Source of the DNA: Escherichia phage phiWec186
Direction: 5' to 3' (one strand)
Sequence record: LC739535.1
DNA length: 64,000 nucleotides
The position numbers and the translations under genes are program-made. The notes under the pieces are model-generated. The model searched no databases. It saw nothing but the letters and a program-made list of their open reading frames with translations, and was not told the DNA's origin. Below, piece after piece: positions 15,638-28,551 of the stretch. Numbering within the stretch: position 1 is the stretch's first letter; each line of letters opens with the position of its first letter.

Positions 15638-15859
15638 ATGGGTGTTGTTGCAGGTGTTCTGGCAGTAGTTATCGTGTTTGTTCTGGCTTTCCTGATTAGT
15701 ATGATTCCAGCATGGCTTCTGCTGCTGGCTTATAACTACGTTGTTGAAATGATGGGTCACACAGATATCACTGTTCCTATCACCTTCTGGACTGTGGTGT
15801 GTGTGGCATTTATCATGGCTGTACTACGTGGGATCTTTTCCTCAAGTTCTTCAAAATAA
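15638..15859 (+). CDS. small membrane protein
   Basis: Two hydrophobic helices; SD AGAGGAG. Confidence 0.5.
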   Translation: MGVVAGVLAVVIVFVLAFLISMIPAWLLLLAYNYVVEMMGHTDITVPITFWTVVCVAFIMAVLRGIFSSSSSK

Positions 15860-15862
15860 GTG

Positions 15863-15890
15863 TTGACAAGGTTTTAGAATAGAGTAAGAT
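15863..15890 (+). promoter_or_regulatory. sigma70-like promoter TTGACA-N16-TAAGAT
   Basis: gtgTTGACAag context as at 1035 and 20909; followed by a gcgggga/tccccgc hairpin in the 5' UTR of the TerC gene. Confidence 0.5.
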
Positions 15891-15940
15891 GTATCACATG
15901 AGGCGGGGAGTGGTTCCCCGCAAAGAGAAAGGAGAAAATA

Positions 15941-16915
15941 ATGCAACTTGGTTTTCCAATCATTGATGTAGTGGTGTTGGTAGGTATTCTTGTTCTGTCG
16001 ATCTGTGTTGACTTTTTTGGTCATCGTGAAAACAAGGAGATCTCTTTCAAATCCGCTGTGGCTTGGTCAGTATTCTGGATTGGTGTGTCTTTAGCCTACT
16101 ACGGTTTTGTATACTTCCAGCACGGCGCAGCTTTTGCAAACTTATTCTTGAGTGGATATGTGTTAGAGAAGTCGCTCTCGGTAGATAACTTGGTAGTGTT
16201 TGTAGCAGTGTTCTCCAGTTTCGGGATTAAGAGCACACACTTACAACACAAAATTCTACTCTGGGGTATTGCAGGTGCGATTGTCTTCCGAGGTGTGTTT
16301 GTAGCAGCAGGGACTTATCTGCTAAGTTTGGGTTGGTTTGTTAATATCATCTTCGGTGCTGTTATCCTGTTCTGTGCTTTTAAAATGGTAATGGCTGGCG
16401 GTGATGATGAAGAAGTGGATTACTCTAAACATTGGGCGACACGCTTTGTACGTAAACTATTCCCAGTATCGGATCAGATGGATGGCGAGAAGTTCTTCAC
16501 AATTAAGAATGGTGTTCGTGTAGCAACTCCGGCTCTGGTTTGTGTGTTCGTGATGGAAATGGTGGATGTGATCTTTGCAGTAGACTCGGTTCCGGCTGTA
16601 ATTGCAGTGACACAAGAACCACTGCTTGTATTCTCTTCGATGCTCTGTGCAATCTTAGGCTTACGTGCTCTGTTCTTTGTTCTTAGTGTGGCCCTGAAGT
16701 ATCTGGTTCACCTGGAAAAAGCAGTTATCGCAGTCCTGGTGTTTGTTGGTGTGAAACTGATGTATCACCCGTTTGCAGAAACGCTGCACGCAAAAGTGAG
16801 CTTCCTGCCAGCGCATATTGACCCGACGATCAGCATGTATATCGTGCTTGGTACTCTGACCCTGGGCGTGATTGCAAGTTTCATCTTCCCTGAAAAAGAA
16901 GAAGCTACCGCTTAA
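15941..16915 (+). CDS. TerC-family integral membrane protein
   Basis: Multiple TM helices and the TerC-type signature GYVLEKSLSVDNLVVF. Confidence 0.75.
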   Translation: MQLGFPIIDVVVLVGILVLSICVDFFGHRENKEISFKSAVAWSVFWIGVSLAYYGFVYFQHGAAFANLFLSGYVLEKSLSVDNLVVFVAVFSSFGIKSTHLQHKILLWGIAGAIVFRGVFVAAGTYLLSLGWFVNIIFGAVILFCAFKMVMAGGDDEEVDYSKHWATRFVRKLFPVSDQMDGEKFFTIKNGVRVATPALVCVFVMEMVDVIFAVDSVPAVIAVTQEPLLVFSSMLCAILGLRALFFVLSVALKYLVHLEKAVIAVLVFVGVKLMYHPFAETLHAKVSFLPAHIDPTISMYIVLGTLTLGVIASFIFPEKEEATA

Positions 16916-16922
16916 TACCAAT

Positions 16923-16947
16923 GAACCTCCTTCGGGAGGTTTCTTAC
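16923..16947 (+). terminator. hairpin, possible weak terminator
   Basis: gaacctcc-ttcg-ggaggttc stem-loop, weak U-tract. Confidence 0.35.
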
Positions 16948-16963
16948 TAACATAGGAGGAATT

Positions 16964-17314
16964 ATGTCTGTATATTTTGACGATGTTCAGGAATATGTTT
17001 GGTGTCTTTCTGGCACAATCTCGGAAGTAGAAGCTGCGATTCAAGAGGTTTTTCCTTACGCTTATGTAGAAGTTAAACAGGCACCTCCTATGGATCTTCC
17101 CCCTAATGTGGAAGCTTGTTGTGGTTCCGGCGAGGGTACAGTCATCCCAGTTCTGCGTTACGAACTACAAGCAGCAAGTGCAAATGTCGATGATATTATT
17201 ACAGAAATTAAGGCGTATGGTTTCTGGACCTCTCCTTACGCTAAATGGGATAACTCTGACACTTGGGATTTATTCTTCTGGGATAATGAGACAGATGACG
17301 AGGTATTTCTGTAA
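16964..17314 (+). CDS. hypothetical protein
   Basis: SD AGGAGGA. Confidence 0.55.
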   Translation: MSVYFDDVQEYVWCLSGTISEVEAAIQEVFPYAYVEVKQAPPMDLPPNVEACCGSGEGTVIPVLRYELQAASANVDDIITEIKAYGFWTSPYAKWDNSDTWDLFFWDNETDDEVFL

Positions 17315-17556
17315 TGAAAGTTGTTTGGGTTGTGTTTGAAAATATTTGTTTTGCAATAGGTTTGTTCGTCATACTTTTTGTGTTGACAAACGTGATCAAT
17401 GGTAGTAAAGTATCCCTATACAAAGACGGGGAGCAGATTTACTGCTTCTCTGGAGATTTCAAACACACCTGTGTTAATATGCAGAAAGAAGAAACTCCAC
17501 ACCAGAAGTCAAGAGAAGATTTTGATTGGTGGTCACTACTTAATAACTTAAGATGA
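17314..17556 (+). CDS. small membrane protein
   Basis: TAATG overlap; one TM helix. Confidence 0.45.
   Translation: MKVVWVVFENICFAIGLFVILFVLTNVINGSKVSLYKDGEQIYCFSGDFKHTCVNMQKEETPHQKSREDFDWWSLLNNLR
17383..17411 (+). promoter_or_regulatory. candidate internal promoter TTGACA-N17-TAAAGT
   Basis: tgtgTTGACAaa context inside the 17314 ORF. Confidence 0.3.
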
Positions 17557-17565
17557 GGAGAAAAT

Positions 17566-18435
17566 ATGAAAAATATTCAGCCATTACCTGTAGTTGGGGA
17601 TTTGTATTTCTTATCTGGTACGGGTTATTCCCCAGAAGCATTAGAAGTTAACAAGAACGTCTTCCGAGTGAAAGAAATAAGAGAAGAATGTAATGAAATT
17701 GTTTTCGAAGGTATTACTAATGGAGTTCTTCAGTATGCAGAGATGCGTAGCTGCTTCCAGCAACCTTTCCGCCCGTTGGCAGACGAGTATAAGATTGCGG
17801 TAAATATTGATGATCTTAAAAAAGAACCAGGGTTCGAAGCGTTCTCTACTTTTATGGAAGATACGTATGTGGATGTAAAGAGATCTAACCTTTTCGCGGG
17901 GGATAATTTCCCTCACTTTGTGTCAGAGAAAAGTGATGGTTTTTCCGACTACGTGGATGCTGTAAACTATGATGTTTCTGAATTGACAGGAGAGCAGGAT
18001 TATCTTCTGCTGTCTCCTAAAGATTTCATGCGCGTAATGTATGCCGTAGCCGAACAGAAAAAGAAGAAAGAAAAGCTTGTAGCCAAAAAAGTTAAAAAGG
18101 TTAAAGGTAAACGTGCCAAAGGTGTTCCAGAACGTAAGCGCACCGTAAATAAGGCGACAGTCTTCTTTACCAGCGGTGAGCAATATACGATCAAAGGTTT
18201 TAAAGAAGTGGGTTACACTGCTGGCGGAAACCTTCTGTTCTTCACAGTTGCAGAAGAAGGAGAAACTTTTATCCGTTTTTCCAATATGTGGGAAATGTCT
18301 GTAGAAGATATTAAAAGTGTTGTTGTTTTAGGTGTACATAAGAGTTTCATTATTAATCAAATCTCTGATTTCAGTGCACACTTGACAGCACCAGATTTCG
18401 AAACTACCACAACAAGCTTTAACTTCAAGGTGTAA
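17566..18435 (+). CDS. hypothetical protein with Lys-rich segment
   Basis: SD GAGGAGAA; internal KKKKEKLVAKKVKKVKGKRAK stretch. Confidence 0.55.
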   Translation: MKNIQPLPVVGDLYFLSGTGYSPEALEVNKNVFRVKEIREECNEIVFEGITNGVLQYAEMRSCFQQPFRPLADEYKIAVNIDDLKKEPGFEAFSTFMEDTYVDVKRSNLFAGDNFPHFVSEKSDGFSDYVDAVNYDVSELTGEQDYLLLSPKDFMRVMYAVAEQKKKKEKLVAKKVKKVKGKRAKGVPERKRTVNKATVFFTSGEQYTIKGFKEVGYTAGGNLLFFTVAEEGETFIRFSNMWEMSVEDIKSVVVLGVHKSFIINQISDFSAHLTAPDFETTTTSFNFKV

Positions 18436-18438
18436 TGC

Positions 18439-19029
18439 ATGAATACCGAGAGAGATTTAAAACTCTTGTGGTGGGAAGTGATGCAGGAGATCAAGGAGGA
18501 TTTCCCTGTTTACTACAACATGCTACGTGAAGCTGGATATACGGCTTGCGTTAGGAACAAAGTGAATAACTCTTTCGGTTGGTGCAACTACCGAGAAAAG
18601 ATTGTTGTTGTGAATTGGCACTTGCATAAAAACTCCACAAGGGATATGATAGTGGACACAATGAAGCATGAGATTGCTCATGCGATCGACGGTTGTATGG
18701 GTAAGTTCAGTCGTCATGGACCACACTGGCAAAAGCTGGCAGCAGAGTTGGGAGCCAATCCTAAAGCTACTTCCAAAGAACCGTTAAACCATGAGTACAA
18801 ATATGTTCTTGTTTTGGTGGACAGATTTGCCACAAGATGTGTTAGAGGGTATAATCGTAAACCTAACCGTATGACTCCAGGGAAACAACCACATATTTGG
18901 TTGAAGAGTGATAAAGAGGGGACAGAAGGAAAAATATGGTTGTATAAATGGGAAGATTGGGTTAAAGTAGCTAAAGAATATGGTGTTTCACCTTACACAA
19001 GAGAAATAGAAGAGGAGAATGAAGAATGA
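18439..19029 (+). CDS. SprT-like zinc metallopeptidase (putative)
   Basis: HExxH motif MKHEIAHAIDG. Confidence 0.45.
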   Translation: MNTERDLKLLWWEVMQEIKEDFPVYYNMLREAGYTACVRNKVNNSFGWCNYREKIVVVNWHLHKNSTRDMIVDTMKHEIAHAIDGCMGKFSRHGPHWQKLAAELGANPKATSKEPLNHEYKYVLVLVDRFATRCVRGYNRKPNRMTPGKQPHIWLKSDKEGTEGKIWLYKWEDWVKVAKEYGVSPYTREIEEENEE

Positions 19030-20138
19030 CAAGTCCATTTTTGAAAGCGGCAACTGGTGGTCAAAAGAAATCTGAAACGAGTGTACTGACTGCTACTACA
19101 GATGCAAGCAAGTCCGTGTTCGCTCCGAGTGTCCTGGATGCAAGTCCAGTGTATGCTCCAGCAGCGCCAAAAGCTGTGCCTACCTTGCCAACAATGTCTC
19201 GTAAAGAGATTGAAGAAGTGGGTGCAGAAGCAGGTTTAACTCTCCGCACGCTGAATGCCGAAGTGTTAAAGCACCAACGTAGCAATCAAGGCGATGAAAT
19301 GAGCCAACGCCTTACCGCGCTGATTAAACAAGCCAAACAGCTTGATCCTGCTTCTATCAAGCAGAGCAAAGGTGTAGGCAAACTTATCAAGAAACTGATG
19401 GGTATGAAGGAAGATCTGTTCGGGGAATTCGATAATGTGAACAACCGTATCGAAGAACTCGTTAAGAATCTTCAGATGGATATTCGTAAAGAAGAAGATT
19501 CTCTGGTGTACCTGGAGAAGCTGCACCAGGCGATCGGACAGTACGCCGCAAGCCTGAATCGTGATATGGAATTACTCACAGCAGCTTATGAGCAAGAACT
19601 GGCTAACTTTGAAGCTACGCCAGAAGATGACGTAGAAGCCCGTCAACGCGTCCGTGACACGCTTGATCTTCTGGAGATACGTATTGCTGACTTGAAGGCA
19701 TTACGCTTGCTGTGCGTGCAAATGGGGCCGCGTGTATTGGGTATGCAGAAAGTATCTGCCAGCCTCATGCGTTCTGCTCGTAATATTGTGAACAATGTGA
19801 TTCCTGCTTACTCGGCAAACTTCTCGATGTATATTGAAAGTCTGCGCCAGAAGAAAGCAGCAGAAACACAGAACAACGTTCTGGACGAGTTCAACCTGGC
19901 AATCAAACTGGGTAGCGATCTTGCCACACAGAACCAGATCGAAGCAGCAGCACTGGCTAACCGCCAAGTGTTGGATATCGAAACTCTGCGTCACGATCAG
20001 GAGAACTTGGTTAAGATGTTGGAAGAAACTAACCGCATCAATACGGAAGCCCGTGCTGCCCGTGTTGATTACATCAATGAAGTTCAATCTCTCGAAGATG
20101 GGATGGTTGACGCTGTTAAGAAGGGGTTGGGTAAATGA
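19026..20138 (+). CDS. TelA-like (toxic anion resistance family) protein
   Basis: About 370 aa helical protein; segments resemble TelA/KlaB as I recall them; SD GAGGAG. Confidence 0.5.
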   Translation: MTSPFLKAATGGQKKSETSVLTATTDASKSVFAPSVLDASPVYAPAAPKAVPTLPTMSRKEIEEVGAEAGLTLRTLNAEVLKHQRSNQGDEMSQRLTALIKQAKQLDPASIKQSKGVGKLIKKLMGMKEDLFGEFDNVNNRIEELVKNLQMDIRKEEDSLVYLEKLHQAIGQYAASLNRDMELLTAAYEQELANFEATPEDDVEARQRVRDTLDLLEIRIADLKALRLLCVQMGPRVLGMQKVSASLMRSARNIVNNVIPAYSANFSMYIESLRQKKAAETQNNVLDEFNLAIKLGSDLATQNQIEAAALANRQVLDIETLRHDQENLVKMLEETNRINTEARAARVDYINEVQSLEDGMVDAVKKGLGK

Positions 20139-20341
20139 GAATCCGTGTATACATGCTTGACGAACAAGCTGGAGAAATAGGTGTTCGTTATGATGAAGAG
20201 AAACGCTTTGCCCCAATGACCCAGCTACAAACTCCAGATATTTTTGCAGCTTGTCGTGACGGATATATCTATGAAGGTTGTCGCAACTTTGGCAGATTTA
20301 AAGTTATTTCTGATGTGGAATTTAACGAGGAGGAAGAATGA
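20135..20341 (+). CDS. hypothetical protein
   Basis: ATGA-coupled. Confidence 0.5.
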   Translation: MRIRVYMLDEQAGEIGVRYDEEKRFAPMTQLQTPDIFAACRDGYIYEGCRNFGRFKVISDVEFNEEEE

Positions 20342-20508
20342 AAACATTGCGTGTGAACATCGAAACTACCTGGCGAGATTTCGAGGTTGTTGATATTGAG
20401 ATTGAAGACGATATGTCTCAAGAAGATATCGAAGATCTTGCAAAAGAAACATTTCAGGACTATTGTAATTACGGGTTCCATATTTTAGGGGAGGAAGAAG
20501 ATGTTTAA
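20338..20508 (+). CDS. hypothetical small acidic protein
   Basis: 56 aa ORF not in the track; SD GAGGAGGAAGA. Confidence 0.45.
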   Translation: MKTLRVNIETTWRDFEVVDIEIEDDMSQEDIEDLAKETFQDYCNYGFHILGEEEDV

Positions 20509-20899
20509 ACACACAAACGTAAACTTGAAATTAACAGTAACAGATCCGACTCTTTTCATCAATCTTACAAGCGGGGAAGTTTATGAAGTTATCACAGACG
20601 AGGATGGTTCTTGCTTCCTTAAAGGTTATTATCTCTGTGAATCTGATGAGTTGGTATCTATTATCACCTTGGGAGAATACGAAGAACCAGGCTTCCGTGT
20701 GGAGGTTGTTAAGAATCCCGATATTATCCAGTTGACTCGCCAAGAACTGATCACAATCATGGAAGACGCTTTTATTGATGGATGGAAGACTCAAAACTAT
20801 GATTGGAGTGGCCCAGAAGACTTCCTGCGTCTTCATAAAGAGTATGACGATTCCAGCGAAACTACTATTGCCATTGATAGTATTAAGGCTGGTGTGTAA
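20501..20899 (+). CDS. hypothetical protein
   Basis: SD GGGGAGGAAGA. Confidence 0.55.
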   Translation: MFKHTNVNLKLTVTDPTLFINLTSGEVYEVITDEDGSCFLKGYYLCESDELVSIITLGEYEEPGFRVEVVKNPDIIQLTRQELITIMEDAFIDGWKTQNYDWSGPEDFLRLHKEYDDSSETTIAIDSIKAGV

Positions 20900-20908
20900 T
20901 GAAAAGTG

Positions 20909-20937
20909 TTGACAACAATCTCCATAAGATGGATAAT
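20909..20937 (+). promoter_or_regulatory. sigma70-like promoter TTGACA-N17-GATAAT
   Basis: gtgTTGACAac context in the intergenic gap. Confidence 0.55.
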
Positions 20938-20968
20938 ACCTCCATCGAAAAAACGGGAGGAGATAAGA

Positions 20969-21241
20969 ATGTTTGATTTTAAAATAAAGGATTCAAAACC
21001 CCAAGATGTAGCAGTTCGTTTCGAAGAGTTGGGGATTGGTGAAACTTTCATGTATTATTCAGCATATGAAGAAAATGGTTTGGATACATTTGCAAACTTA
21101 GTATTCCTTAAAAGCGGCGGCGCGACTGCTGTTTGTTTGAATAGTTCATCAAGAGGGAGTGTCCATACCGTATCCCCAGATGTGCCGATGGTTGCAGTTC
21201 GTTTAGTAGTTACTGATATTACACTTACAGAGGAGAAATAA
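20969..21241 (+). CDS. hypothetical protein (paralog of 22263..22544)
   Basis: ATG at 20969 after GGGAGGAG; homologous to the 22263 product. Confidence 0.55.
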   Translation: MFDFKIKDSKPQDVAVRFEELGIGETFMYYSAYEENGLDTFANLVFLKSGGATAVCLNSSSRGSVHTVSPDVPMVAVRLVVTDITLTEEK

Positions 21242-21242
21242 T

Positions 21243-22043
21243 ATGTCCAATAAAATTAGCCTGAAGAAACGCCAAGACACCCTGACCATTTCACTGAAGA
21301 AAAAGAAAATTGTCAACGAAGATCAAAAGATCGTTCTGCGTGTTGCAAGCGCACTGGATATCTCCGGCAGCATGTCCAGCCTGTATCGTAACGGTACTGT
21401 AAGTGAGTTTGTTGGTAAGCTGCTTCCGTTTGGTATGCTGTTCGATGATAACGCGCAGATCGATATGTGGGCTTTCAACAATAGCTCTCGTGAAATCACT
21501 CCAGCAACTGCTGATGTGTATGATGATTACGTTGGTAAATGCATTAATGGTCGTGTAACAGTCCAGGGTGGCACAAGCTATGCACCTGTTATGCAGGATA
21601 TTTACGATTCCTACTTCGGTAGCACCACTAAATATGAAACTGTAGAAACCCCTGTAACCAAAGAAGTTCCTAAGAAAGGTTTCTTCAACCGTTTACTGGG
21701 TAAAACCGAAACTGTAGAAGCTATTGTAGAAAAAACTGTAGCCGTTGCTGTGCCTGGTGTAGACGTTACTCCGGCAGTTGTGTTCTTCCAGACAGATGGA
21801 GAGAACGATGATCCGAGCCGTGTACTCTCCGTACTGGAAAAGAACAAGGGTAAACCTATTTACTGGTTCATGGTGGGTGTTGGTAGTGCTCGTTTCTCTT
21901 TCCTGAAAGATTTGGCTGAAGCTTACGACAACGTAGCATTCATTGGTCTGAACGATCTTTCCTTGACAGACGAGCAGCTTTACGATAAACTCTTGTCTGA
22001 AGAGTTCGGTGAGTGGGTTGAAAAGGTTGGTGCTAAGAAATGA
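21243..22043 (+). CDS. von Willebrand factor A (vWA) domain protein, TerY-like
   Basis: MIDAS motif LDISGSM, then GGTSYAPV and VFFQTDGENDD; N-terminus shares the SxKISLKK...ISLKK start with the TerD gene. Confidence 0.65.
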   Translation: MSNKISLKKRQDTLTISLKKKKIVNEDQKIVLRVASALDISGSMSSLYRNGTVSEFVGKLLPFGMLFDDNAQIDMWAFNNSSREITPATADVYDDYVGKCINGRVTVQGGTSYAPVMQDIYDSYFGSTTKYETVETPVTKEVPKKGFFNRLLGKTETVEAIVEKTVAVAVPGVDVTPAVVFFQTDGENDDPSRVLSVLEKNKGKPIYWFMVGVGSARFSFLKDLAEAYDNVAFIGLNDLSLTDEQLYDKLLSEEFGEWVEKVGAKK

Positions 22044-22282
22044 TCGACACGCTGATCTCTCAAACGGTGTTGCAAGTGATGCGTGAGAGAGAAGCTTTCA
22101 TCATGAAGGGTCTTAAAGATTATTTTGGGACTCTTTCTTTGGAAGAACTCAAACTACGCGTTGAGATCCATGCGTATCCTTCTTATGAAGAATGGATTGA
22201 CAAAGCAAATAAAGCTGTTATAATGCGTATCAACAAACCAGAAATCACGACAGGAGGACAAGATGTTAAATTTCGCCATTAA
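22040..22282 (+). CDS. hypothetical protein
   Basis: ATGA-coupled ORF; weak SD. Confidence 0.4.
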   Translation: MIDTLISQTVLQVMREREAFIMKGLKDYFGTLSLEELKLRVEIHAYPSYEEWIDKANKAVIMRINKPEITTGGQDVKFRH

Positions 22283-22544
22283 GAAAGATAGCAAACCAAA
22301 GATTCAGACTTGTCGCATTGCAAATCTTACACATGGTGATTTGTTTGTTCTGAAAAGTGCCTACGACGAAGACGGTCTTGATCCAGAAGCAGTCGTCGTT
22401 TATATGGTGTTGCGGCGAGATGAAGACACCAAGCACCCATACAATGCGGTAGAGATGAATTACAATGCAATGTTGTGCTCAATACACTATACGGCAGAGT
22501 TGGTGCAGGTAGAGTTAACAGTTAACGAAATTAAACTTAAATAA
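22263..22544 (+). CDS. hypothetical protein (paralog of 20969..21241)
   Basis: SD AGGAGGA; sequence similarity to 20969..21241. Confidence 0.55.
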   Translation: MLNFAIKKDSKPKIQTCRIANLTHGDLFVLKSAYDEDGLDPEAVVVYMVLRRDEDTKHPYNAVEMNYNAMLCSIHYTAELVQVELTVNEIKLK

Positions 22545-22559
22545 TAGAGGAGACACATA

Positions 22560-23162
22560 ATGAGCGATAAAATTTCCCTGAAAAAAGGTTCCACCGAGAA
22601 GATTTCCCTGAAGAAAGTTGCTCCGGCACTGAAAGAACTGCGTCTGGAGTTCTCCTGGAAATCAAACTCTAAACTGGATCTGGATGTAAGCGCACTTGTA
22701 TGCCGACACAACGCCTCTGGCAACCCTGAAATGCTGTCTGCACGTCATCTGGTTTGTTATGCTAACAAGTTTGATCCAGAACGTTCTGTATTCGCAGGTG
22801 ATGATGTTCGTGACGGTACTGGTCAAATGGAACAAATCGATGTAACCTTGGCTAAGATCTCCGATAAAGCCGAAGAGATTGCTTTTGTCCTAACTATTGA
22901 TGATGAAACGGGTCAGAAACGTCTGGGTCACGCTACTGAAGGTATGCTGAAGATCTTTGATGCCGAGCGTAACGTTGAGATCCTGGACTTCGACTTCTTG
23001 GCTCCTGAAGTGGCTGGTAATACCATCTGCCACGTAGCTTCCCTGGTTCGTGAAGACGGTGAATGGAAACTGAAAGCTTACGGTGTTGGTAAAGCAGGTA
23101 TGGATATCTGTGATGTGGTTATGGCCTTCGGTGGTCAGAAAGAATGGTACGATTGCCCGTAA
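22560..23162 (+). CDS. TerD-domain protein
   Basis: TerD-like layout: N-terminal ISLKKG..ISLKK, DLDVSALV, GDDVRDGTG, FDFLAPE, C-terminal WKLKAYG. Confidence 0.7.
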   Translation: MSDKISLKKGSTEKISLKKVAPALKELRLEFSWKSNSKLDLDVSALVCRHNASGNPEMLSARHLVCYANKFDPERSVFAGDDVRDGTGQMEQIDVTLAKISDKAEEIAFVLTIDDETGQKRLGHATEGMLKIFDAERNVEILDFDFLAPEVAGNTICHVASLVREDGEWKLKAYGVGKAGMDICDVVMAFGGQKEWYDCP

Positions 23163-23199: not shown

Positions 23200-23228
23200 T
23201 TGCAAAAACGCCTCTCATGTGTTATACT
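23200..23228 (+). promoter_or_regulatory. sigma70-like promoter TTGCAA-N17-TATACT
   Basis: Preceded by a ggggga-gaaa-tccccc hairpin. Confidence 0.5.
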
Positions 23229-23259
23229 GGTAGTTCATTCACCCAAAAGGAGGCAAAAT

Positions 23260-23781
23260 TTGCTGATAAAAAACTTTGTAACAGTTGCGTTACTATCCTT
23301 AACTGCTTTTACATTTACACCTGTCACGGCAACCGCCGAAGCTGCAAACGTAAAGACTGCTAAAGTAGTTCACAAATGTGCAAAGCAAGATACTAAAGAA
23401 AATCTCTTGGCTTGTGCAATTTACGCTGAAAGTCGTAATCAGGGTAAACGTGGGATGTATGCTGTAGGTAATGTAGTATTGAACAGGAAAGGTGATGATT
23501 ACTTCCCTGATAATATTAAAGATATTCTCTTCCAACGAGGACAATTCTCTTACAGGAAGAAGTTTAACGTTACCGAAGCAGAGCGATGGAAAGAAGCTAA
23601 AGCTATCGCAAAACGACTTATATACCTGGATACACACTTCCCTACACTTAGAGAAGCCCAGGACATGACAAAAGGTGCGACATTTTTTAAGAAAGTAAAA
23701 ACCCGTGCACACTGGACAAAAGATATGGTCTTAGTGTATCGTTATAAAGAACATCAGTTCTACCTACCGACAAGGAGCTAA
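23260..23781 (+). CDS. SleB/CwlJ-family cell-wall hydrolase with signal peptide (candidate endolysin)
   Basis: LACAIYAESRNQGKRGMYAVGNVVLNRKGDDYFPDNIKDILFQRGQFSY matches the cell-wall hydrolase family. TTG start at 23260 after AAGGAGG gives a signal peptide LIKNFVTVALLSLTAFTFTPVTATAEA. Confidence 0.6.
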   Translation: MLIKNFVTVALLSLTAFTFTPVTATAEAANVKTAKVVHKCAKQDTKENLLACAIYAESRNQGKRGMYAVGNVVLNRKGDDYFPDNIKDILFQRGQFSYRKKFNVTEAERWKEAKAIAKRLIYLDTHFPTLREAQDMTKGATFFKKVKTRAHWTKDMVLVYRYKEHQFYLPTRS

Positions 23782-23782
23782 T

Positions 23783-24067
23783 ATGCGAGAAGATAATACT
23801 GTTGTTGTTGCGAGCTATCTCGTTATCGGTTTAACCGAAGAAGATGTGTACTACATTCGTAAAGGTTTGGAAGCTTACGCTACCCTCTTCATGGAAGACG
23901 AAAGCGATGTTGATAAATATTCCGTGGAGTTGATCAACGACAGTATTTATCCTTGCATAGCTCTTAAAGTAGATGCTGTTCTGTGGGAGCGTTTTGCAAG
24001 AAGTCACGATGCTATTGAATCTTCAATGGTTATGACACAAAACAACATTTTGGGGGTGATTCACTAA
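23783..24067 (+). CDS. hypothetical protein
   Basis: SD AAGGAG. Confidence 0.55.
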   Translation: MREDNTVVVASYLVIGLTEEDVYYIRKGLEAYATLFMEDESDVDKYSVELINDSIYPCIALKVDAVLWERFARSHDAIESSMVMTQNNILGVIH

Positions 24068-24297
24068 TGGCAGATATCATTGAGGTAAACTTCCGTACTC
24101 GGAAGAAAGTAGAGAAATATACAATATTGAAAAGTGTTTGCGTTGTTTGTTTCAATAGTGTAATCTACGATTCAAGAAAGGGCGAAGACGGTAATGAGCC
24201 GTATATCGAACTGTCAAAGGGCAACGGTAGTTGCATTTGTAAAGCTTGTGCTGTTCAGATTAAGGGGGTTGTTGATGAAAACGAATGGGATAAATAA
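24067..24297 (+). CDS. hypothetical Cys-rich small protein
   Basis: CVVCF...CICKAC zinc-ribbon-like. Confidence 0.45.
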   Translation: MADIIEVNFRTRKKVEKYTILKSVCVVCFNSVIYDSRKGEDGNEPYIELSKGNGSCICKACAVQIKGVVDENEWDK

Positions 24298-24469
24298 TAC
24301 AGGGGAACTTTCTCTTGAGAACGTAACAAACGACAAACTGATTAAAATGCGAGATGTAGCTTTGGATCATCTCCAAGACTCCTTCAAGGAATATATGGAA
24401 GCACGGGATCGTGTGCTTGAGATTCGTCAAGCAATGGTTAAACGCGGAATGGTGGTGGATTCTAAATAA
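24275..24469 (+). CDS. hypothetical protein
   Basis: ATG at 24275 after AAGGGGG. Confidence 0.4.
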   Translation: MKTNGINNTGELSLENVTNDKLIKMRDVALDHLQDSFKEYMEARDRVLEIRQAMVKRGMVVDSK

Positions 24470-24478
24470 GGGGTCAGT

Positions 24479-25042
24479 ATGATTTATTATATTACCCCCT
24501 ATCTAAGTGGAGATATCGGCAAAGCAATTAACGATGCTATTGCCGTTCTTCACGAAGATAGTTGGGTCTGTTTACGTGATATCGATACCATGTTCTTACT
24601 GCCAGACCAACCTTCTATGTTGGAAGATTTGGTAGCAACCAATCCACCGTTTGATGTGATCGGTGCGTCTTGTAATCGTTTAGGTAGTGGTTATCAACTT
24701 CTCGGTGGAAAGATTGATGATGATCCTAACATTCTGAACCATATTTCTCATGCCAAAGTTGCTCGTGATTACTATGGTGATGAAATTGAAGAAGTCCCAC
24801 AAGGCACTCCCTTAGCAGGTTTCTTTCTATTGTTCAGGAAATCATTATGGAAGGAGATCCCTTTTGAAGAACGTACCATCCAGTTCGATATAATCTTCTC
24901 AAACACTTTACATGAACGAGGAAAAAGGTTAGGATTGATGCGTGGGATGTATCTCTTCCATATTTACCGTTTAGGTCAAAAAGATCCTCAACGGGCAATA
25001 TCACACCTTATGCATTGTCATGATCACCGGAAAACTATTTAG
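24479..25042 (+). CDS. putative glycosyltransferase (GT-A-like)
   Basis: N-terminal YYITPY...CLRDIDTMF arrangement; weak. Confidence 0.35.
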   Translation: MIYYITPYLSGDIGKAINDAIAVLHEDSWVCLRDIDTMFLLPDQPSMLEDLVATNPPFDVIGASCNRLGSGYQLLGGKIDDDPNILNHISHAKVARDYYGDEIEEVPQGTPLAGFFLLFRKSLWKEIPFEERTIQFDIIFSNTLHERGKRLGLMRGMYLFHIYRLGQKDPQRAISHLMHCHDHRKTI

Positions 25043-25050
25043 GGGGAAAG

Positions 25051-25734
25051 ATGGAAAATATTAAAATTGGGGTTGGCGTTATCACTGTAGGTGTTCGTCC
25101 ACTTAAAGATTACATGGTTGCACCTGGTGTAGACTTCAAAGTGTTTCACGATCCCGATCGTAAAGGTGTAGCTTATGCTCGCAACCAATTAATGAAACAG
25201 TTCTACGATGAAGGTTTTGACTACTGGTTCATTTTTGACGATGATTGCTATCCGGTTAAACGTGGCTGGGAAGAATACTTCGTTAACCAGGCTGTCGAGA
25301 ATGGTTGGGACTTCTTCGGTATGCCAGAATACTTCAAAGATACTGTGATAGGTTGTTCTGGAGAAGTAGTCTTCTGGGAATTGGCTATGTGTCAGTTTGC
25401 AATGTATTCTCGTGCAACTGTTGAGACGATGGGTTATTTCCGTCCTTATACACACGGATATGGTTTCGAAGATGCAGAATGGACTAATCGTCTGAAAGCT
25501 TCAGGTTTGAATAAAGGACTCCAGGGCGTACCTTGTCCGATGCGCATTATGGCGTACATTCACCCCGACGATGTTTTCGGTGATAACCCTTTACCTTTTG
25601 CTAATCTGACAAAAGAAGAGAAAGAATCAGCAATCGGGATCAATTGGGAAGAATACAAACTGTCTTTGGAGGATATTAATAATGGCAAAACACACATCTC
25701 TTTTGAAGAGGCTGAAGGATATGGCGTTAAATAA
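25051..25734 (+). CDS. putative glycosyltransferase (GT-A fold)
   Basis: WFIFDDDCYP acidic motif after a beta-strand-rich N-terminus. Confidence 0.45.
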   Translation: MENIKIGVGVITVGVRPLKDYMVAPGVDFKVFHDPDRKGVAYARNQLMKQFYDEGFDYWFIFDDDCYPVKRGWEEYFVNQAVENGWDFFGMPEYFKDTVIGCSGEVVFWELAMCQFAMYSRATVETMGYFRPYTHGYGFEDAEWTNRLKASGLNKGLQGVPCPMRIMAYIHPDDVFGDNPLPFANLTKEEKESAIGINWEEYKLSLEDINNGKTHISFEEAEGYGVK

Positions 25735-26668
25735 GAAACCAACCCTACTGTGTGACAACAAATTCAACAGTGGTTGTGATTACCATCGCATTGTCATGCC
25801 ATTTTCTAACACAGAGATCAAGCCACGTACTGATGTACTGGTCTTTAACCGCATCTTCTCGAAGGGTGCTGATGAAGTAGCCAAACTTAAGCGCCAAGGT
25901 GTTAAGATTGTTGTAGATTTGGATGATTTCTATCAATTGAATCCAGAACACTACCTGGCGCATCTGTACGCGCCAAACACCCGCACAATCGTGGAAATGG
26001 TTAAAATAGCAGATATTGTCATTGTCACAACCGAATACCTGGCGTACAAAGTTCGTCACTTAAACTCTAACGTTGTTGTGATCCGAAATGCTCTACCGTT
26101 TGATGATGGTCAATTCACTCTCTCGAATGATCGTACTTCGGGTACGCCTATCATTTGGGCTGGAGGTGCGAGTCATGAACCGGATTTACGTTTGCTTTCA
26201 AACACTTTTGATGATAGTTTATTGTCTATCGCAGGGTATGAAGCGAGCAGCACAGTGACAGGGCAAGAGTGGGTTAAGATCCGCCGTAGTTTGCCTAATG
26301 CGCAGTATAAACCTGCTGTAGATTCTTTGAATCATTATATGTCTGCATACGATGGTCATGCTATGGCTGTAGCTCCGTTAGTAGATAACGACTTCAACCA
26401 TTGCAAGAGCAACCTGAAAGTATTAGAAGCTGGTGCTAAAGGCATTCCAATCGTTTGTTCTAAGGTATTACCTTACTACAACCCGATCGATGCCCGTGCA
26501 GTAACCTTCGCAGATAGCAAAGCAGAGTGGCACTATGAAGTTGTAAAACTACTTCGTAATCCAAACTACCGCGAAGATCGTGGACTGTTCTTGGCTGAAC
26601 ATGTTCGTACTCACTACAACTTGAAGGATGCAAACGAATTGCGTCGTCAAGTGATCGAAAGTCTGTAG
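25721..26668 (+). CDS. putative glycosyltransferase (GT-B-like), tandem paralog 1
   Basis: Homologous to the next gene (CDYHR..., IWAGGASHEPDL, KSNLKVLEAGAKGIPIVCS); start could also be the ATG at 25682. Confidence 0.5.
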   Translation: MALNKKPTLLCDNKFNSGCDYHRIVMPFSNTEIKPRTDVLVFNRIFSKGADEVAKLKRQGVKIVVDLDDFYQLNPEHYLAHLYAPNTRTIVEMVKIADIVIVTTEYLAYKVRHLNSNVVVIRNALPFDDGQFTLSNDRTSGTPIIWAGGASHEPDLRLLSNTFDDSLLSIAGYEASSTVTGQEWVKIRRSLPNAQYKPAVDSLNHYMSAYDGHAMAVAPLVDNDFNHCKSNLKVLEAGAKGIPIVCSKVLPYYNPIDARAVTFADSKAEWHYEVVKLLRNPNYREDRGLFLAEHVRTHYNLKDANELRRQVIESL

Positions 26669-26674
26669 GTGTTT

Positions 26675-27619
26675 ATGGGACAAATTATTCTTGACAATCG
26701 TGGTGGAAAAGAATATAGTGTCTGTGATTATCACCGAGTAATGCTGCCTTACACAAGGCAGTTCTCGGCCCAACCGTCACAGAACGTATATGTCTTTAAC
26801 GGTGTCCCTACGAAAGGGAAACAAGGCTTCATAGCCCTTAAGAGCATGGGCTTTAAGATGGTAATGGATTTGGATGACTCTTTAAACATTCCCCAAGGCC
26901 ATATGCTGGAAGACATTTTTGATGCAGGTATTCGAGAAGACTTGCAATGGTTCCTCGAACGCAGTGATCTTGTAACGACAACAACCCCTGCTCTCCAGGT
27001 GGAATTGTCCCAGTACAATCCTAACGTGCATATTATCCCAAATGGTTTACCGTTTGACGAGGATCAGTTTACGTTAACTCGTGATCGCTACTCCAAGTCC
27101 CCTGTAGTTTGGGCTGGAAGTGAAACACACAAGCAAGACCTGGCTCTACTACCGAACTTCGGGAGTGACTTAACGATTTGCGGATTCCGCAGAGATAGTG
27201 AAGTGTTAAGTAGTCAGCAATGGACCGATATACGTGAAAAGGTGGCTCCAAGCTGCAAATATGAGGCTGTTAGACCATATGAGAGCTATATGGAATCTTA
27301 CGACGGTCATCAGATAATGCTTGCACCTCTAACAGATAACATGTTTAATAACGCTAAGAGTAACCTGAAGATTCTGGAAGCAGGTGCCAAGGGTTTACCT
27401 TTAGTGTGTTCTCCCCGTGAAAACTACTTCACCGAAGAGTTTAAAGATTTGTTGTTCTTTGCAGAAACAAAAAGCGAGTGGGAAGATATTGTTAATTACC
27501 TGATCCAGTGTCCTGATGTGGGTATTGAAAAGGGATTAGCTTTAGCTAAGTATGTTCGTAAGCATTACCATATTGATGTGCTGAATGAACGCCGTAGATT
27601 ATTATTTGAGGAGTTATAA
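26675..27619 (+). CDS. putative glycosyltransferase (GT-B-like), tandem paralog 2
   Basis: VCDYHR..., VWAGSETHKQDL, KSNLKILEAGAKGLPLVCS; GTG at 26669 is an alternative start. Confidence 0.5.
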   Translation: MGQIILDNRGGKEYSVCDYHRVMLPYTRQFSAQPSQNVYVFNGVPTKGKQGFIALKSMGFKMVMDLDDSLNIPQGHMLEDIFDAGIREDLQWFLERSDLVTTTTPALQVELSQYNPNVHIIPNGLPFDEDQFTLTRDRYSKSPVVWAGSETHKQDLALLPNFGSDLTICGFRRDSEVLSSQQWTDIREKVAPSCKYEAVRPYESYMESYDGHQIMLAPLTDNMFNNAKSNLKILEAGAKGLPLVCSPRENYFTEEFKDLLFFAETKSEWEDIVNYLIQCPDVGIEKGLALAKYVRKHYHIDVLNERRRLLFEEL

Positions 27620-27897
27620 TGCTGAATACTTTTGATTTTGAATACACTACGAAAAGTGGTTTTAATGTTGTGGTGGAGGTTGACTATTACTACGAAGAGC
27701 CTGATCCACACTCACGGGAAAGTGATTGGGATTACCACGGCGGGTTACTGATCGACGGTATCCGTTTCTATGCGGGTCTGGAACAGATTAATGCGGAAGA
27801 CATTAACGTCACCGTAACAGAAATCGCATACCAATTCAAAAAACATATGGAGGCATTAGAAGCCGAGTACATGATGGAAACTAACGAATCATTTTAA
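27619..27897 (+). CDS. hypothetical acidic protein
   Basis: SD GAGGAG. Confidence 0.5.
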   Translation: MLNTFDFEYTTKSGFNVVVEVDYYYEEPDPHSRESDWDYHGGLLIDGIRFYAGLEQINAEDINVTVTEIAYQFKKHMEALEAEYMMETNESF

Positions 27898-27906
27898 CAG
27901 GAGAGG

Positions 27907-28551
27907 ATGACCATGAGGTTAGTACAAGGTTGGGGGATTAATGATATAGGTAGTATCCCTAAAACAGGTTTTATCCGAGTAGCTTACAGGTGTTGGTCAA
28001 GAGTTTTAGAAAGATCTCACAGTAAAGCTTGGAAGAATAAGTATCCTACATACAAGGATGTAACATGTTGCGAAGACTGGAAATATTTTTCAGTATTCAT
28101 GGACTGGATGGAGACACAACCTTGGGAAGGAAACGATTTGGATAAGGATTTGTTAGGAGATGGTAGCTTATACTCCCCTCAAACTTGTGTTTTTATACCT
28201 CCTGAAATAAATAAAGCTTTAGCTGCAAATAAAAAACAAGGAGAATTCTTATCTGGAGTCTGGTTTCAAACAAAGTCTAAAACTATGGTTAATAGTTTAA
28301 AACGTCCTTGGGCTGTTAAAGCCCATAGACAGGGTAGTAAAAAACCTGTATATTTAGGAAACTATTATTCAGAACAAGAAGCCCATAATGTGTGGTTGAC
28401 TACACGCGCAGAGGATATGTTATGGTGGTGCGACCAATGGGAAAACAACGAGAAGTATAATAAATCTTGGAAACCTGTGTTTAAAGAAGCTTTTAATAAG
28501 AAAGCTGAAGCTTATAGAGGGAGGATAAAAAATGTCATACATTGTCACTAA
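27907..28551 (+). CDS. AP2-domain homing-endonuclease-like protein, paralog 1
   Basis: Conserved N-terminal block (RCWS...CCEDWKYF...LDKDLLGDGSLYSPQTCVF) plus C-terminal AP2-like GVWFQ...LGNYYSEQEAHNVW; paralog at 33022. Confidence 0.45.
   Translation: MTMRLVQGWGINDIGSIPKTGFIRVAYRCWSRVLERSHSKAWKNKYPTYKDVTCCEDWKYFSVFMDWMETQPWEGNDLDKDLLGDGSLYSPQTCVFIPPEINKALAANKKQGEFLSGVWFQTKSKTMVNSLKRPWAVKAHRQGSKKPVYLGNYYSEQEAHNVWLTTRAEDMLWWCDQWENNEKYNKSWKPVFKEAFNKKAEAYRGRIKNVIHCH

What the first reader, a model, noticed from the sequence alone, without database searches (positions are those of the whole stretch)
24479..27619. Cluster of four putative glycosyltransferases including a tandem duplicated pair
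Four consecutive genes show glycosyltransferase-like features: one with a DDD acidic motif typical of GT-A enzymes and two clearly paralogous genes about 320 aa long with a conserved C-terminal KSNLK(V/I)LEAGAKG(I/L)P(I/L)VCS block. In a virulent phage such clusters usually glycosylate modified DNA bases or, less often, virion or host surface glycans. No hydroxymethylase is visible in this window, so the substrate is unknown.
Basis: inference. Interest (0 to 1): 0.6.

Follow-up and report, generated by a model that had tools for sequence, protein, structure and literature searches.

The report
Phage four-glycosyltransferase glycan-building gene cluster
A virulent E. coli phage carries four adjacent sugar-transferring enzymes plus its own rhamnose-making genes. 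They most likely build a short sugar chain on something other than DNA, but the target is still unknown.

Summary
Window 24479-27619 (+) encodes four consecutive soluble glycosyltransferases: GT1 (GT-A fold, DxD), GT2 (GT-A-like, DDD), and a tandem GT-B pair, GT3/GT4 (41% identity, E = 2e-76).

The window is 100% identical to Escherichia phages phiWec179 and phiWec181 (Stephanstirmvirinae). The cluster sits in the same place in Phapecoctavirus and Justusliebigvirus records, where it is already annotated as glycosyltransferases.

The same genome encodes RmlBACD (dTDP-L-rhamnose). Distant relatives carry an RmlB-like dehydratase inside the cluster.

DNA glycosylation is disfavoured:
- No ThyA/gp42-fold hydroxymethylase was detected, and no TET or C5-methyltransferase domain in the candidates scanned.
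- There is no detectable relation to T4 beta-glucosyltransferase.
- The enzymes are acidic.
- phi92-like relatives with the same cluster are reported as exceptionally restriction-sensitive.

Outside this lineage, the GT2 + GT-B core pair lies in prophage and siphovirus packaging/head gene blocks, with sugar-tailoring enzymes nearby. Cellular homologues are often fused into giant multi-GT proteins.

My best reading is a sequential glycan-assembly cassette acting on a non-DNA acceptor. I rate virion protein at about 0.4 and host envelope glycan at about 0.3. The acceptor is not established.

The parts
24479..25042 (+). GT1: 187-aa soluble minimal GT-A-fold glycosyltransferase. Invariant D34-x-D36-T37, N66-R67 and H161-x-Y-R164.
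   Evidence: No Pfam or NCBIfam hit. Matches phrog_14179 at 1e-102. AF2 pLDDT 92.6. Foldseek against PDB finds GT-A enzymes, best Listeria RmlT (a teichoic-acid rhamnosyltransferase) at 5e-4, then K4CP, LH3, GalNAc-T2 and SpsA-dTDP. Motifs from alignment A2.
25051..25734 (+). GT2: 227-aa GT-A-like glycosyltransferase carrying the DDD motif. Invariant R44, D64, D65, Y137-G138-x-E140-D141. It is one half of the conserved GT-A + GT-B core pair.
   Evidence: Sub-threshold Pfam hits to GT2, TAGT and Glyco_transf_7C. Matches phrog_2456 at 6e-74. Across the family, TAGT matches 15 of 18 members, GT2 12 of 18 and 7C 11 of 18. A Pseudomonas prophage orthologue matches at hhalign E = 7e-63. Its fold was not modelled here.
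25721..26668 (+). GT3: 315-aa compact GT-B (GT4-like) glycosyltransferase, a paralogue of GT4, with a basic N-terminal (acceptor) domain. An alternative upstream start lies at 25682.
   Evidence: 41% identical to GT4. Matches phrog_7162 at 4e-138. Member of family alignment A1. N-domain pI 8.5.
26675..27619 (+). GT4: 314-aa compact GT-B (GT4-like) glycosyltransferase with an acidic N-terminal domain. An alternative GTG start lies at 26669.
   Evidence: AF2 pLDDT 93.5, pTM 0.91. Foldseek against PDB finds MshA, GlgM, GtfC, BshA and PglA at E about 1e-9. The family profile against PDB finds TreT at 6e-6. Pfam Glyco_trans_1_2 scores 26.7 bits against a 25-bit cut-off.
27619..27897 (+). orf92: small acidic protein (pI 4.1, motif SDWDYxGG) that always follows the last GT-B gene in the myovirus lineage. 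Its function is unknown and its membership of the system is uncertain.
   Evidence: Matches phrog_4240 at 7e-31. Conserved in EmilieFrey, Klebsiella phi1_175008, L009 and L014, but not in the siphovirus and prophage contexts.

Best explanation
The four genes form a phage-encoded glycan-assembly cassette. Four soluble cytoplasmic Leloir glycosyltransferases (two GT-A, two GT-B) appear to be co-transcribed with the primase-helicase gene. I propose they act one after another to build a short oligosaccharide, or a repeat, from host UDP-sugars and from dTDP-L-rhamnose made by the phage's own RmlBACD operon, which lies elsewhere in the genome.

GT2 plus one GT-B is the conserved core. GT3 and GT4 keep the same nucleotide-sugar-binding C-domain but have diverged acceptor N-domains, so they probably add similar sugars at successive positions.

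The acceptor is not DNA. My best guess is one or more phage virion proteins, such as fibre or other surface components, giving a glycan coat like that of glycosylated actinobacteriophages and chloroviruses.

Shown: the enzyme folds and motifs, the paralogy, the presence of Rml genes, the lack of detected base-hydroxylating enzymes, and the gene contexts.
Inferred: rhamnose as donor, sequential action, and the identity of the acceptor.
For: - Folds and motifs.
- phiWec179 encodes rmlB/A/C/D at record positions 42284-45559. The distributions of RmlD and GT4 in the phage collection look nearly the same (157 and 144 records, Escherichia 106 in each).
- In distant relatives L009 and L014, an RmlB-like dTDP-glucose 4,6-dehydratase lies inside the GT cluster.
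- No credible terminator occurs until after the primase-helicase gene, and the cluster's GC content matches the genome.
- Outside the myovirus lineage every context examined is a phage or prophage. The GT2 + GT-B pair, or the GT-B alone, sits in or beside the packaging/head block. In L005 it is immediately upstream of terS, terL, portal and capsid. In Pseudomonas prophages the order is Big_2 Ig-like protein, GT2 orthologue, GT-B, metallopeptidase, terS, terL, portal, tightly packed and with the same GC3 as the neighbours. In a Flavihumibacter prophage it lies between a 528-aa ORF and the portal gene, next to a TylF-like sugar O-methyltransferase. In a Chitinophaga prophage an acetyltransferase and TerL are nearby. 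In L008 a GT1 homologue sits with three more GT-A genes and an FkbM methyltransferase, near a portal gene.
- Several structural neighbours glycosylate proteins: GtfC/Gtf3 and SdgB for GT4, and GalNAc-T2, LH3 and COLGALT1 for GT1.
- Evidence against DNA as acceptor.
Against: - No glycan has been seen on any Stephanstirmvirinae virion. The 3-3.9 A cryo-EM study of phi92, which carries the orthologous cluster, models the capsid, cement, sheath, tube and baseplate proteins and does not mention glycans. Fibres II and III were not resolved there.
- In this phage the cluster lies in the replication module, not the structural module.
- The structural neighbours are equally consistent with lipid-linked or small-molecule acceptors (PglA, WaaG, RmlT, MshA, BshA, TreT).
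- Rhamnose as donor rests only on gene co-occurrence within one vertically related subfamily and on neighbourhood in two contigs.
- The prophage contexts could instead reflect lysogenic-conversion genes.
Confidence: 0.4

Rival explanations
1. Host envelope glycan remodelling. The soluble GTs work at the cytoplasmic face of the inner membrane on undecaprenyl-pyrophosphate-linked intermediates (ECA lipid I/II, O-units) or on lipid A-core. They add rhamnose-containing sugars and so alter, cap or deplete the surface glycans these phages use as receptors. That could give superinfection exclusion or stop progeny being trapped on debris.
For: - RmlBACD plus four soluble GTs looks like an O-unit assembly line.
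- Structural neighbours include PglA, WaaG, PimA/PimB', TarM, RmlT, K4CP and KfiA, which act on lipid- or polymer-linked acceptors.
- Cellular and metagenomic homologues of the GT-B are often fused to GT2 and methyltransferase domains in proteins of 1200-3600 aa, as in polysaccharide synthases.
- The GT3-type acceptor domain is basic (pI 8.5-9.5), which fits an anionic or membrane-bound acceptor.
- Cluster composition differs between E. coli phages (four GTs) and Klebsiella phages (two GTs).
- Apparent co-transcription with replication genes would allow time for export.
- These phages depend on ECA/NGR and the LPS core as receptors.
Against: - No initiating phosphoglycosyltransferase, flippase, polymerase or ligase was recognised in the regions whose annotation was inspected.
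- None of the four proteins has a membrane segment.
- I know of no experimental precedent for a virulent phage doing this.
- In prophages the pair is packed inside the late operon with neighbour-like composition, unlike a typical autonomously expressed conversion gene.
Confidence: 0.3
2. DNA base glycosylation. The GTs rhamnosylate or otherwise glycosylate a modified base in phage DNA to evade nucleases, as in T-even phages or the TET-associated pathways.
For: - The cluster lies beside primase-helicase and DNA polymerase, as T4 b-gt and gene 42 lie beside genes 41 and 43.
- TAGT is the Pfam family most consistently matched, though weakly, by GT2-family members (15 of 18, best 3.4e-5). GT2 also has the R...DDD...ED pattern described for DNA GT-As.
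- Known DNA GT-Bs also resemble MshA and BshA.
- Olsen et al. proposed rhamnosylation of hydroxymethylated nucleotides for these phages.
Against: - No ThyA/gp42-fold enzyme was detected in the genome, and no TET/JBP or C5-methyltransferase domain in the candidates scanned.
- The TAGT score of 18.5 bits is below the 27.5-bit cut-off and covers only 38 residues around the DxD motif.
- hhalign against T4 beta-GT gives 4% probability.
- The GTs are acidic, whereas T4 beta-GT has pI 9.05.
- phi92-like phages with the same cluster are exceptionally sensitive to restriction-modification systems.
- DNA hypermodification genes are usually clustered with their base-modifying enzymes.
Confidence: 0.08
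3. Small-molecule or host-protein glycosylation. The enzymes make a soluble glycoside or disaccharide, for example decorating a nucleoside-like product of the neighbouring Ter/PRTase/HAD/Macro genes, or they glycosylate a host protein as a takeover step.
For: - The best PDB matches of the GT-B are small-molecule enzymes: MshA, GlgM, BshA, TreT and sucrose-phosphate synthase.
- The BASEL annotators called the orthologues 'putative disaccharide synthase'.
- The synteny TelA, TerF, TerD, SleB ... GT cluster is kept across distant lineages, and PRTase_3 lies about 2 kb upstream of the cluster in L009.
Against: - Four GTs is many for a small glycoside.
- The Ter-like genes and the GTs are separated and rearranged between lineages, and the GT pair occurs without any Ter genes in siphovirus and prophage contexts.
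- The Foldseek ranking among GT4-like enzymes does not discriminate between acceptor types (E within one order of magnitude, TM 0.55-0.65).
Confidence: 0.15

Closest known systems
Actinobacteriophage virion glycosylation loci (e.g. mycobacteriophage Che8; Freeman et al. 2023, recalled from memory and from citing papers)
   Same: Phage-encoded soluble GTs, often accompanied by sugar methyltransferases, that do not act on DNA. Relatives of this cluster sit beside O-methyltransferases and head/packaging genes.
   Different: Homology to those GTs was not tested. No glycosylated virion protein is known in this lineage. The host is Gram-negative, and this phage supplies its own dTDP-rhamnose pathway.
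T4 alpha/beta-glucosyltransferases and TET-associated glycosyltransferases (TAGT, PF20691)
   Same: Virulent-phage GTs located near replication genes. GT2 shares the R...DDD...ED pattern and weak local similarity with TAGT.
   Different: No hydroxymethylase or TET partner was detected, Pfam scores are below threshold, there is no relation to beta-GT, the proteins are acidic, and relatives are restriction-sensitive.
Bacterial GT4-family retaining glycosyltransferases (MshA, BshA, PglA, GtfC/Gtf3, WaaG) and the CgeB-like Glyco_trans_1_2 family
   Same: Two-Rossmann GT-B fold. The C-domain motif K-S-x-L-K-x-L-E corresponds to the phosphate- and ribose-binding part of the EX7E region.
   Different: The proteins are unusually compact (about 315 aa). 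The first Glu of EX7E is replaced by Ala or Cys. Identity is only 11-16%. Only GT4 reaches a Pfam gathering score.
Rhamnose-based glycan systems that pair RmlABCD with GT-A and GT-B enzymes (O-antigen units, Listeria RmlT teichoic-acid rhamnosylation, Bacillus spore-crust Sps/Cge genes)
   Same: A complete RmlBACD operon in the same genome. GT1's best structural match is RmlT, and the SpsA-dTDP complex is also matched. The GT-B hits the CgeB-type Pfam family.
   Different: The donor was not tested. No lipid-carrier initiation or export genes were recognised in the phage. The genes are split between two genome regions.
Prophage serotype-conversion systems (GtrABC; TarP)
   Same: Phage-borne GTs that change surface glycans. 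Homologues of the GT2 + GT-B pair occur in prophages.
   Different: No GtrA/GtrB-type or membrane GT-C proteins and no transmembrane segments. This phage is virulent. In prophages the pair lies inside the late operon.

Membership tests
GT-A fold glycosyltransferases (GT2-like) | Single Rossmann-like alpha/beta/alpha GT-A fold | tested here: met
   GT1: AF2 pLDDT 92.6. Foldseek against PDB gives probability 1.0 to GT-A enzymes (RmlT 5e-4, K4CP, GalNAc-T2, SpsA), TMq 0.45-0.53. GT2 was not modelled; its assignment rests on profile hits.
GT-A fold glycosyltransferases (GT2-like) | DxD metal and nucleotide-sugar binding motif | tested here: met
   In GT1, D34-x-D36 is invariant across 20 sequences. 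In GT2, D63-D64-D65 is present, with D64 and D65 invariant across 18 sequences.
GT-A fold glycosyltransferases (GT2-like) | Pfam Glycos_transf_2 gathering score (23.3 bits) | tested here: not met
   GT2 scores 19.5 bits and GT1 has no hit. Of 18 GT2-family members, 12 match at E <= 0.1, best 1.9e-11.
GT-B fold, GT4-like / Glyco_trans_1_2 | Two Rossmann domains with an inter-domain cleft | tested here: met
   GT4 AF2 pLDDT 93.5, pTM 0.91. Foldseek finds MshA, GlgM, GtfC, BshA and PglA at E = 3e-9 to 2e-8, TMq about 0.6.
GT-B fold, GT4-like / Glyco_trans_1_2 | Pfam gathering score (Glyco_trans_1_2, 25 bits) | tested here: inconclusive
   GT4 scores 26.7 bits (passes) and GT3 20.8 bits (fails).
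GT-B fold, GT4-like / Glyco_trans_1_2 | EX7E motif in the C-domain | tested here: inconclusive
   The second Glu (E235) and K228/S229 are invariant. The position of the first Glu is Ala in GT4 and Cys in GT3. Judged against the motif as I recall it.
T4-type DNA glucosylation system | Homology to T4 beta-glucosyltransferase | tested here: not met
   hhalign of family A1 against T4 b-gt gives probability 4%. tblastn with b-gt against the genome gives best E = 2.1. T4 alpha-GT was not tested.
T4-type DNA glucosylation system | A ThyA-fold dCMP/dUMP hydroxymethylase in the same genome | tested here: not met
   tblastn with E. coli ThyA and T4 gp42 against about 99.5% of the phiWec179 genome gives best E > 2. 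Only a ThyX-type gene is annotated in relatives. tblastn could miss a very divergent homologue.
T4-type DNA glucosylation system | Hypermodified DNA that resists restriction | not testable with these tools
   Literature only: phi92-like phages Bas60-62, which carry the orthologous cluster, are described as 'exceptionally susceptible' to RM systems.
TET-associated glycosyltransferase (TAGT) pathways | Pfam PF20691 gathering score (27.5 bits) | tested here: not met
   GT2 scores 18.5 bits over residues 36-73 only. Of 18 family members, 15 match weakly, best 3.4e-5.
TET-associated glycosyltransferase (TAGT) pathways | Partner 5mYOX/TET dioxygenase and C5-methyltransferase | tested here: not met
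   No such Pfam domain in 20 candidate ORFs, including those annotated 'Dcm' or 'methyltransferase'. Not every ORF of the genome was scanned.
Actinophage-type virion glycosylation | Glycans attached to capsid or tail proteins | not testable with these tools
   The phi92 cryo-EM study at 3-3.9 A reports none on the modelled major proteins; the fibres were unresolved.
Actinophage-type virion glycosylation | Homology to the characterised mycobacteriophage GTs | not tested
   Those sequences were not at hand. An Arthrobacter phage GT appears only at rank 35 in the BFVD search.
Gtr-type serotype conversion | GtrA flippase, GtrB bactoprenol GT and a membrane GT-C | tested here: not met
   All four proteins lack hydrophobic segments (maximum 19-residue Kyte-Doolittle mean 0.64-1.42).
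dTDP-L-rhamnose-dependent glycan systems | RmlA, RmlB, RmlC and RmlD available to the system | tested here: met
   phiWec179 record 42284-45559 is annotated rffG (RmlB), RmlA, rfbC and rfbD. An RmlB-like gene lies inside the cluster in L009 and L014. Actual donor use was not tested.

The most novel reading that the evidence does not exclude
A virulent phage runs its own O-unit-like assembly line, RmlBACD plus four soluble GTs, on host undecaprenyl-linked or LPS/ECA acceptors. During lytic infection it would rewrite, cap or deplete the very glycans it uses as receptors. That would be phage-driven receptor masking without lysogeny.
Probability: 0.25. Interest if true: 0.75.

Novelty: new variant of a known kind. 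Interest (0 to 1): 0.5.

Why it matters
Stephanstirmvirinae (phAPEC8-like and phi92-like phages) are broad-host-range coliphages often proposed for therapy. Two earlier papers noted their rhamnose and glycosylation genes and left them unexplained.

If the product is a virion glycan, it would be, to my knowledge, the first virion glycosylation system in phages of Gram-negative bacteria. That bears on antibody recognition and clearance of therapeutic phages.

If the product is a host-envelope glycan, it would show receptor remodelling by a strictly lytic phage.

Either way, phages carrying the same cluster plate on E. coli K-12 (BASEL Bas60-62, and the Phapecoctavirus isolates nieznany and ukendt). 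Deletion mutants combined with glycoproteomics, LPS/ECA profiling or nucleoside MS would therefore settle the question quickly.

The GT2 + GT-B pair is also a mobile two-gene module found in unrelated prophages. The GT-B family is very large (more than 5000 cluster representatives at E <= 1e-30) yet mostly falls below Pfam thresholds.

Tried and rejected
- Single-sequence searches of GT4 and GT2 against PDB found only noise. The GT1 and GT2 family profiles against PDB also gave nothing significant.
- NCBIfam has no model for any of the four proteins.
- The afdb50 fold library was not available. BFVD was used instead and did not discriminate between acceptor types. One unnamed 351-aa UniParc entry at rank 21 could be a T-even beta-GT but could not be identified.
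- Freeman et al. 2023 and Schwarzer et al. 2012 are not held, so statements about them rest on memory or on citing papers.
- A paper reporting no glycoprotein staining in E. coli myovirus JEP7 could not be used, because the phage's taxonomy is not given.
- The papers on phiWec179, on the O177 phages, on the completed BASEL collection, on the Durham collection and on 5-hydroxycytosine say nothing about this cluster.
- orf92 as a universal partner of the GT pair is rejected: it is absent from the siphovirus and prophage contexts.
- The idea that the cluster is a recently acquired moron is rejected: its GC and GC3 match the genome.
- A functional link to the upstream Ter-like module was considered but not supported beyond conserved backbone synteny.


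Full report
WHAT IS THERE

Window 24479-27619 holds four tightly packed ORFs on the + strand: GT1 24479-25042 (187 aa), GT2 25051-25734 (227 aa), GT3 25721-26668 (315 aa, with an alternative start at 25682) and GT4 26675-27619 (314 aa, with an alternative GTG at 26669). A 4-kb stretch around them (window 24000-28000) is 100% identical to Escherichia phages phiWec179 and phiWec181, 94.7% identical to 'Pseudomonas phage' PsgM04F, and about 75% identical to some 49 Phapecoctavirus-type records. GenBank files phiWec179 under Stephanstirmvirinae; Phapecoctavirus, and its describers propose a separate genus. Alignment with homologues supports the shorter starts for GT3 and GT4.

ARE THEY GLYCOSYLTRANSFERASES?

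All four match phage 'glycosyltransferase' PHROGs very strongly, at 1e-102, 6e-74, 4e-138 and 4e-135. Curated libraries barely see them. Only GT4 passes a Pfam gathering score (Glyco_trans_1_2, 26.7 against 25 bits). GT3 and GT2 give sub-threshold hits and GT1 gives none. NCBIfam gives nothing.

Structure prediction settles two of them. The GT4 model (pLDDT 93.5, pTM 0.91) is a compact GT-B fold. Its closest solved structures are GT4-family enzymes: MshA, GlgM, GtfC/Gtf3, BshA and PglA at E about 1e-9 and TM about 0.6. The GT1 model (pLDDT 92.6) is a minimal GT-A fold. Its best match is the Listeria teichoic-acid rhamnosyltransferase RmlT, followed by K4CP, LH3, GalNAc-T2 and the SpsA-dTDP complex.

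The family alignments show the expected catalytic signatures. GT1 has an invariant D34-x-D36. GT2 has R44 ... D63-D64-D65 ... Y137-G-x-E140-D141. The GT-B pair has Y-H-R21, D67-D68, H152 and F224-N ... K228-S-x-L-K-x-L-E235. GT2 was not modelled. Its GT-A assignment rests on those motifs and on Pfam GT2, TAGT and 7C hits spread across 18 family members.

THE DUPLICATED PAIR

GT3 and GT4 are 41% identical over 303 residues (E = 2e-76). Both Phapecoctavirus and Justusliebigvirus records carry two copies, which suggests the duplication predates the split of those genera. Some relatives have a single copy.

The paralogues are most alike around the nucleotide-sugar motif and least alike in the N-terminal (acceptor) domain. 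That domain is basic in the GT3 type (pI 8.5-9.5) and acidic in the GT4 type. This pattern fits a shared or similar donor and different acceptors.

Natural GT3/GT4 chimeras with two different crossover points exist in public data.

A SUGAR SUPPLY

phiWec179 itself encodes RmlB, RmlA, RmlC and RmlD at record positions 42284-45559, outside this window. Olsen et al. noted the same operon for phapecoctaviruses and phi92-like phages.

In the phage collection the RmlD and GT4 homologue sets look nearly the same: 157 and 144 records, with Escherichia 106 in each. These are the tools' summary counts, not a record-by-record intersection. Because this is one vertically related subfamily, I give more weight to two distant myovirus contigs, L009 and L014. 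There an RmlB-like dTDP-glucose 4,6-dehydratase (TIGR01181, 1e-47 and 2e-56, both below the equivalog cut-off) lies inside the GT cluster.

Rhamnose or another dTDP-6-deoxyhexose as donor is therefore a reasonable inference, but it was not tested.

IS THE ACCEPTOR DNA?

The position beside primase-helicase and DNA polymerase recalls T4, where b-gt and gene 42 lie between genes 41 and 43. GT2-family members also weakly match the TET-associated GT family. The requirements for DNA glycosylation are nevertheless not met:
- tblastn with E. coli ThyA and T4 gp42 finds nothing in about 99.5% of the phiWec179 genome (best E > 2).
- Twenty candidate ORFs, including those annotated 'Dcm' or 'methyltransferase' in relatives, have no TET/JBP or C5-methyltransferase domain.
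- The TAGT hit scores 18.5 bits over 38 residues around the DxD motif, against a 27.5-bit cut-off.
- The GT-B profile is unrelated to T4 beta-GT (hhalign probability 4%).
- The four proteins have pI 4.7-7.2, against 9.05 for T4 beta-GT.
- BASEL phages Bas60-62 carry the same four-gene cluster in the same place and are described as 'exceptionally susceptible' to restriction-modification systems despite their 'putative dTDP glycosylation machinery'.
- Pyle et al. note that DNA-hypermodification genes are usually clustered with their base-modifying enzymes. They also show that resemblance to MshA and BshA does not exclude DNA GTs, so I do not use fold similarity as an argument here.

I put DNA glycosylation at about 0.08.

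CONTEXT ELSEWHERE

The three families are narrow in the word-indexed search, with 33, 34 and 17 clusters, nearly all unnamed, from metagenome or sequencing-run assemblies, and several on contigs of about 150 kb.

In the myovirus lineage the backbone TelA, vWA-TerF, TerD, SleB ... GT cluster, small ORF, primase-helicase, PolA is conserved, with two to four GTs.

Outside that lineage the contexts are as follows:
- A 36-kb siphovirus-like contig (L005) has a GT2-like gene and a GT-B gene as the first genes of the operon that continues into terS, terL, portal, protease and capsid.
- All the closest 'bacterial' homologues examined are in prophages. In four Pseudomonas genomes the order is Big_2 Ig-like protein, GT2 orthologue (hhalign E = 7e-63), GT-B, phage metallopeptidase, terS-like DUF2280, TerL, portal. 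The genes are tightly packed and the GC3 matches the neighbours.
- A Flavihumibacter prophage has the GT-B between a 528-aa ORF and the portal gene, next to a TylF-like sugar O-methyltransferase.
- A Chitinophaga prophage has it near a hexapeptide acetyltransferase and TerL.
- A GT1 homologue sits with three more GT-A genes and an FkbM methyltransferase near a portal gene.

An exhaustive profile search shows the GT-B family is very large (5184 representatives at E <= 1e-30). Many members are proteins of 1200-3600 aa that fuse it to GT2 and methyltransferase domains. That is what one sees in glycan-polymerising enzymes.

MECHANISM AND ITS LIMITS

In this window the cluster has the genome's composition. 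No credible terminator occurs before the one after the primase-helicase gene, and promoter-like sites are no more frequent than chance. It therefore looks co-transcribed with the replication genes.

I conclude, with about 0.75 confidence, that this is a sequential glycan-assembly cassette acting on a non-DNA acceptor.

Which acceptor is not settled. I lean to virion proteins (about 0.4) for three reasons: the packaging/head contexts, the accompanying sugar-tailoring enzymes, and the viral precedents (actinophages, chloroviruses, mimiviruses; from general knowledge). Against this, the 3-3.9 A cryo-EM study of phi92 does not mention glycans on the capsid, cement, sheath, tube or baseplate proteins it models, though fibres II and III were unresolved.

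Remodelling of host Und-PP-linked, LPS or ECA glycans is nearly as likely (about 0.3). A small-molecule or host-protein acceptor remains possible (about 0.15).

NOVELTY

The genes are already annotated as glycosylation enzymes in public records, for example 'glycosyltransferase' in RefSeq and PHROG-based annotations and 'putative disaccharide synthase' in BASEL records. Two papers have remarked on the rhamnose pathway or putative dTDP glycosylation machinery of these phages. No paper found here establishes a function.

The system does not meet the defining features of the T4, TAGT or Gtr systems. Membership of the actinophage virion-glycosylation kind could not be tested. I rate it a new variant of a known kind, of moderate interest, and readily testable in phages that plate on E. 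coli K-12.

Noticed in passing
window 13656-23162 (+): A Ter-like module: HAD hydrolase (13656-14312), PRTase_3 ComF-like (14284-15132), Macro domain (15142-15624), TerC (15941-16915), SprT-like (18439-19029), TelA (19026-20138), vWA-TerF-like (21243-22043) and TerD (22560-23162). A SleB-type endolysin follows at 23200-23781. The synteny TelA, TerF, TerD, SleB ... GT cluster, primase is kept in distant myovirus contigs L009, L014, L074 and L075.
   Followed up: partly
proteins P0011, P0013 and P0020 (homologues of window 25721-27619); OZ035799.1 Justusliebigvirus alia: Natural GT3/GT4 chimeras. P0011 and P0013 have a GT3-type N-domain (residues 1-120) joined to GT4-type sequence. P0020 switches near residue 240. 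The 'alia' genome has only one GT-B match. These are either real recombinants between the tandem paralogues or assembly collapses.
   Followed up: partly
window 27907-28551 (+): An HNH endonuclease gene (phrog_953, 1e-51) lies between orf92 and the primase-helicase gene and overlaps its start at 28532. PsgM04F and nieznany lack it at this position, and the megablast match to PsgM04F stops just before it. This looks like a homing-endonuclease insertion polymorphism.
   Followed up: partly
window 27619-27897 (+): orf92 is a small acidic protein (pI 4.1) with a conserved SDWDYxGG motif (phrog_4240). It always follows the last GT-B gene in the myovirus lineage but is absent from the siphovirus and prophage contexts. 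Its function is unknown.
   Followed up: partly
window ~53451-64000 compared with LC739533.1 1-10550: The window runs across the end and start of the phiWec179 GenBank record: L010 position 1 maps to window 53451. It therefore comes from a differently permuted record (phiWec181 fits) or spans the terminal repeat.
   Followed up: partly
OR584014.1 (PsgM04F); MG065639, MG065689, MG065650, MG065645 ('Campylobacter phage' A150, A110a, B15, A145): Records labelled as Pseudomonas or Campylobacter phages are 94.7% identical to this coliphage or carry Stephanstirmvirinae-type GT and Rml genes in genomes of about 146-151 kb. The host labels look doubtful.
   Followed up: no
L020 6645-9560 (Pseudomonas sp. 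App30 prophage); the same layout in L019, L021 and L022: In Pseudomonas prophages the GT2 + GT-B pair is flanked by a 208-aa Big_2 Ig-like domain protein upstream and a phage metallopeptidase downstream, just before terS, terL and portal. The Ig-like protein is a candidate acceptor or virion surface protein.
   Followed up: partly
L003 5366-8418 (nieznany); window about 8922-12834: The anaerobic ribonucleotide reductase large subunit is annotated in two pieces with an intervening ORF in nieznany. The window has two large ORFs (509 and 604 aa) in the equivalent region, so a split or intron/intein-containing nrdD is possible.
   Followed up: no
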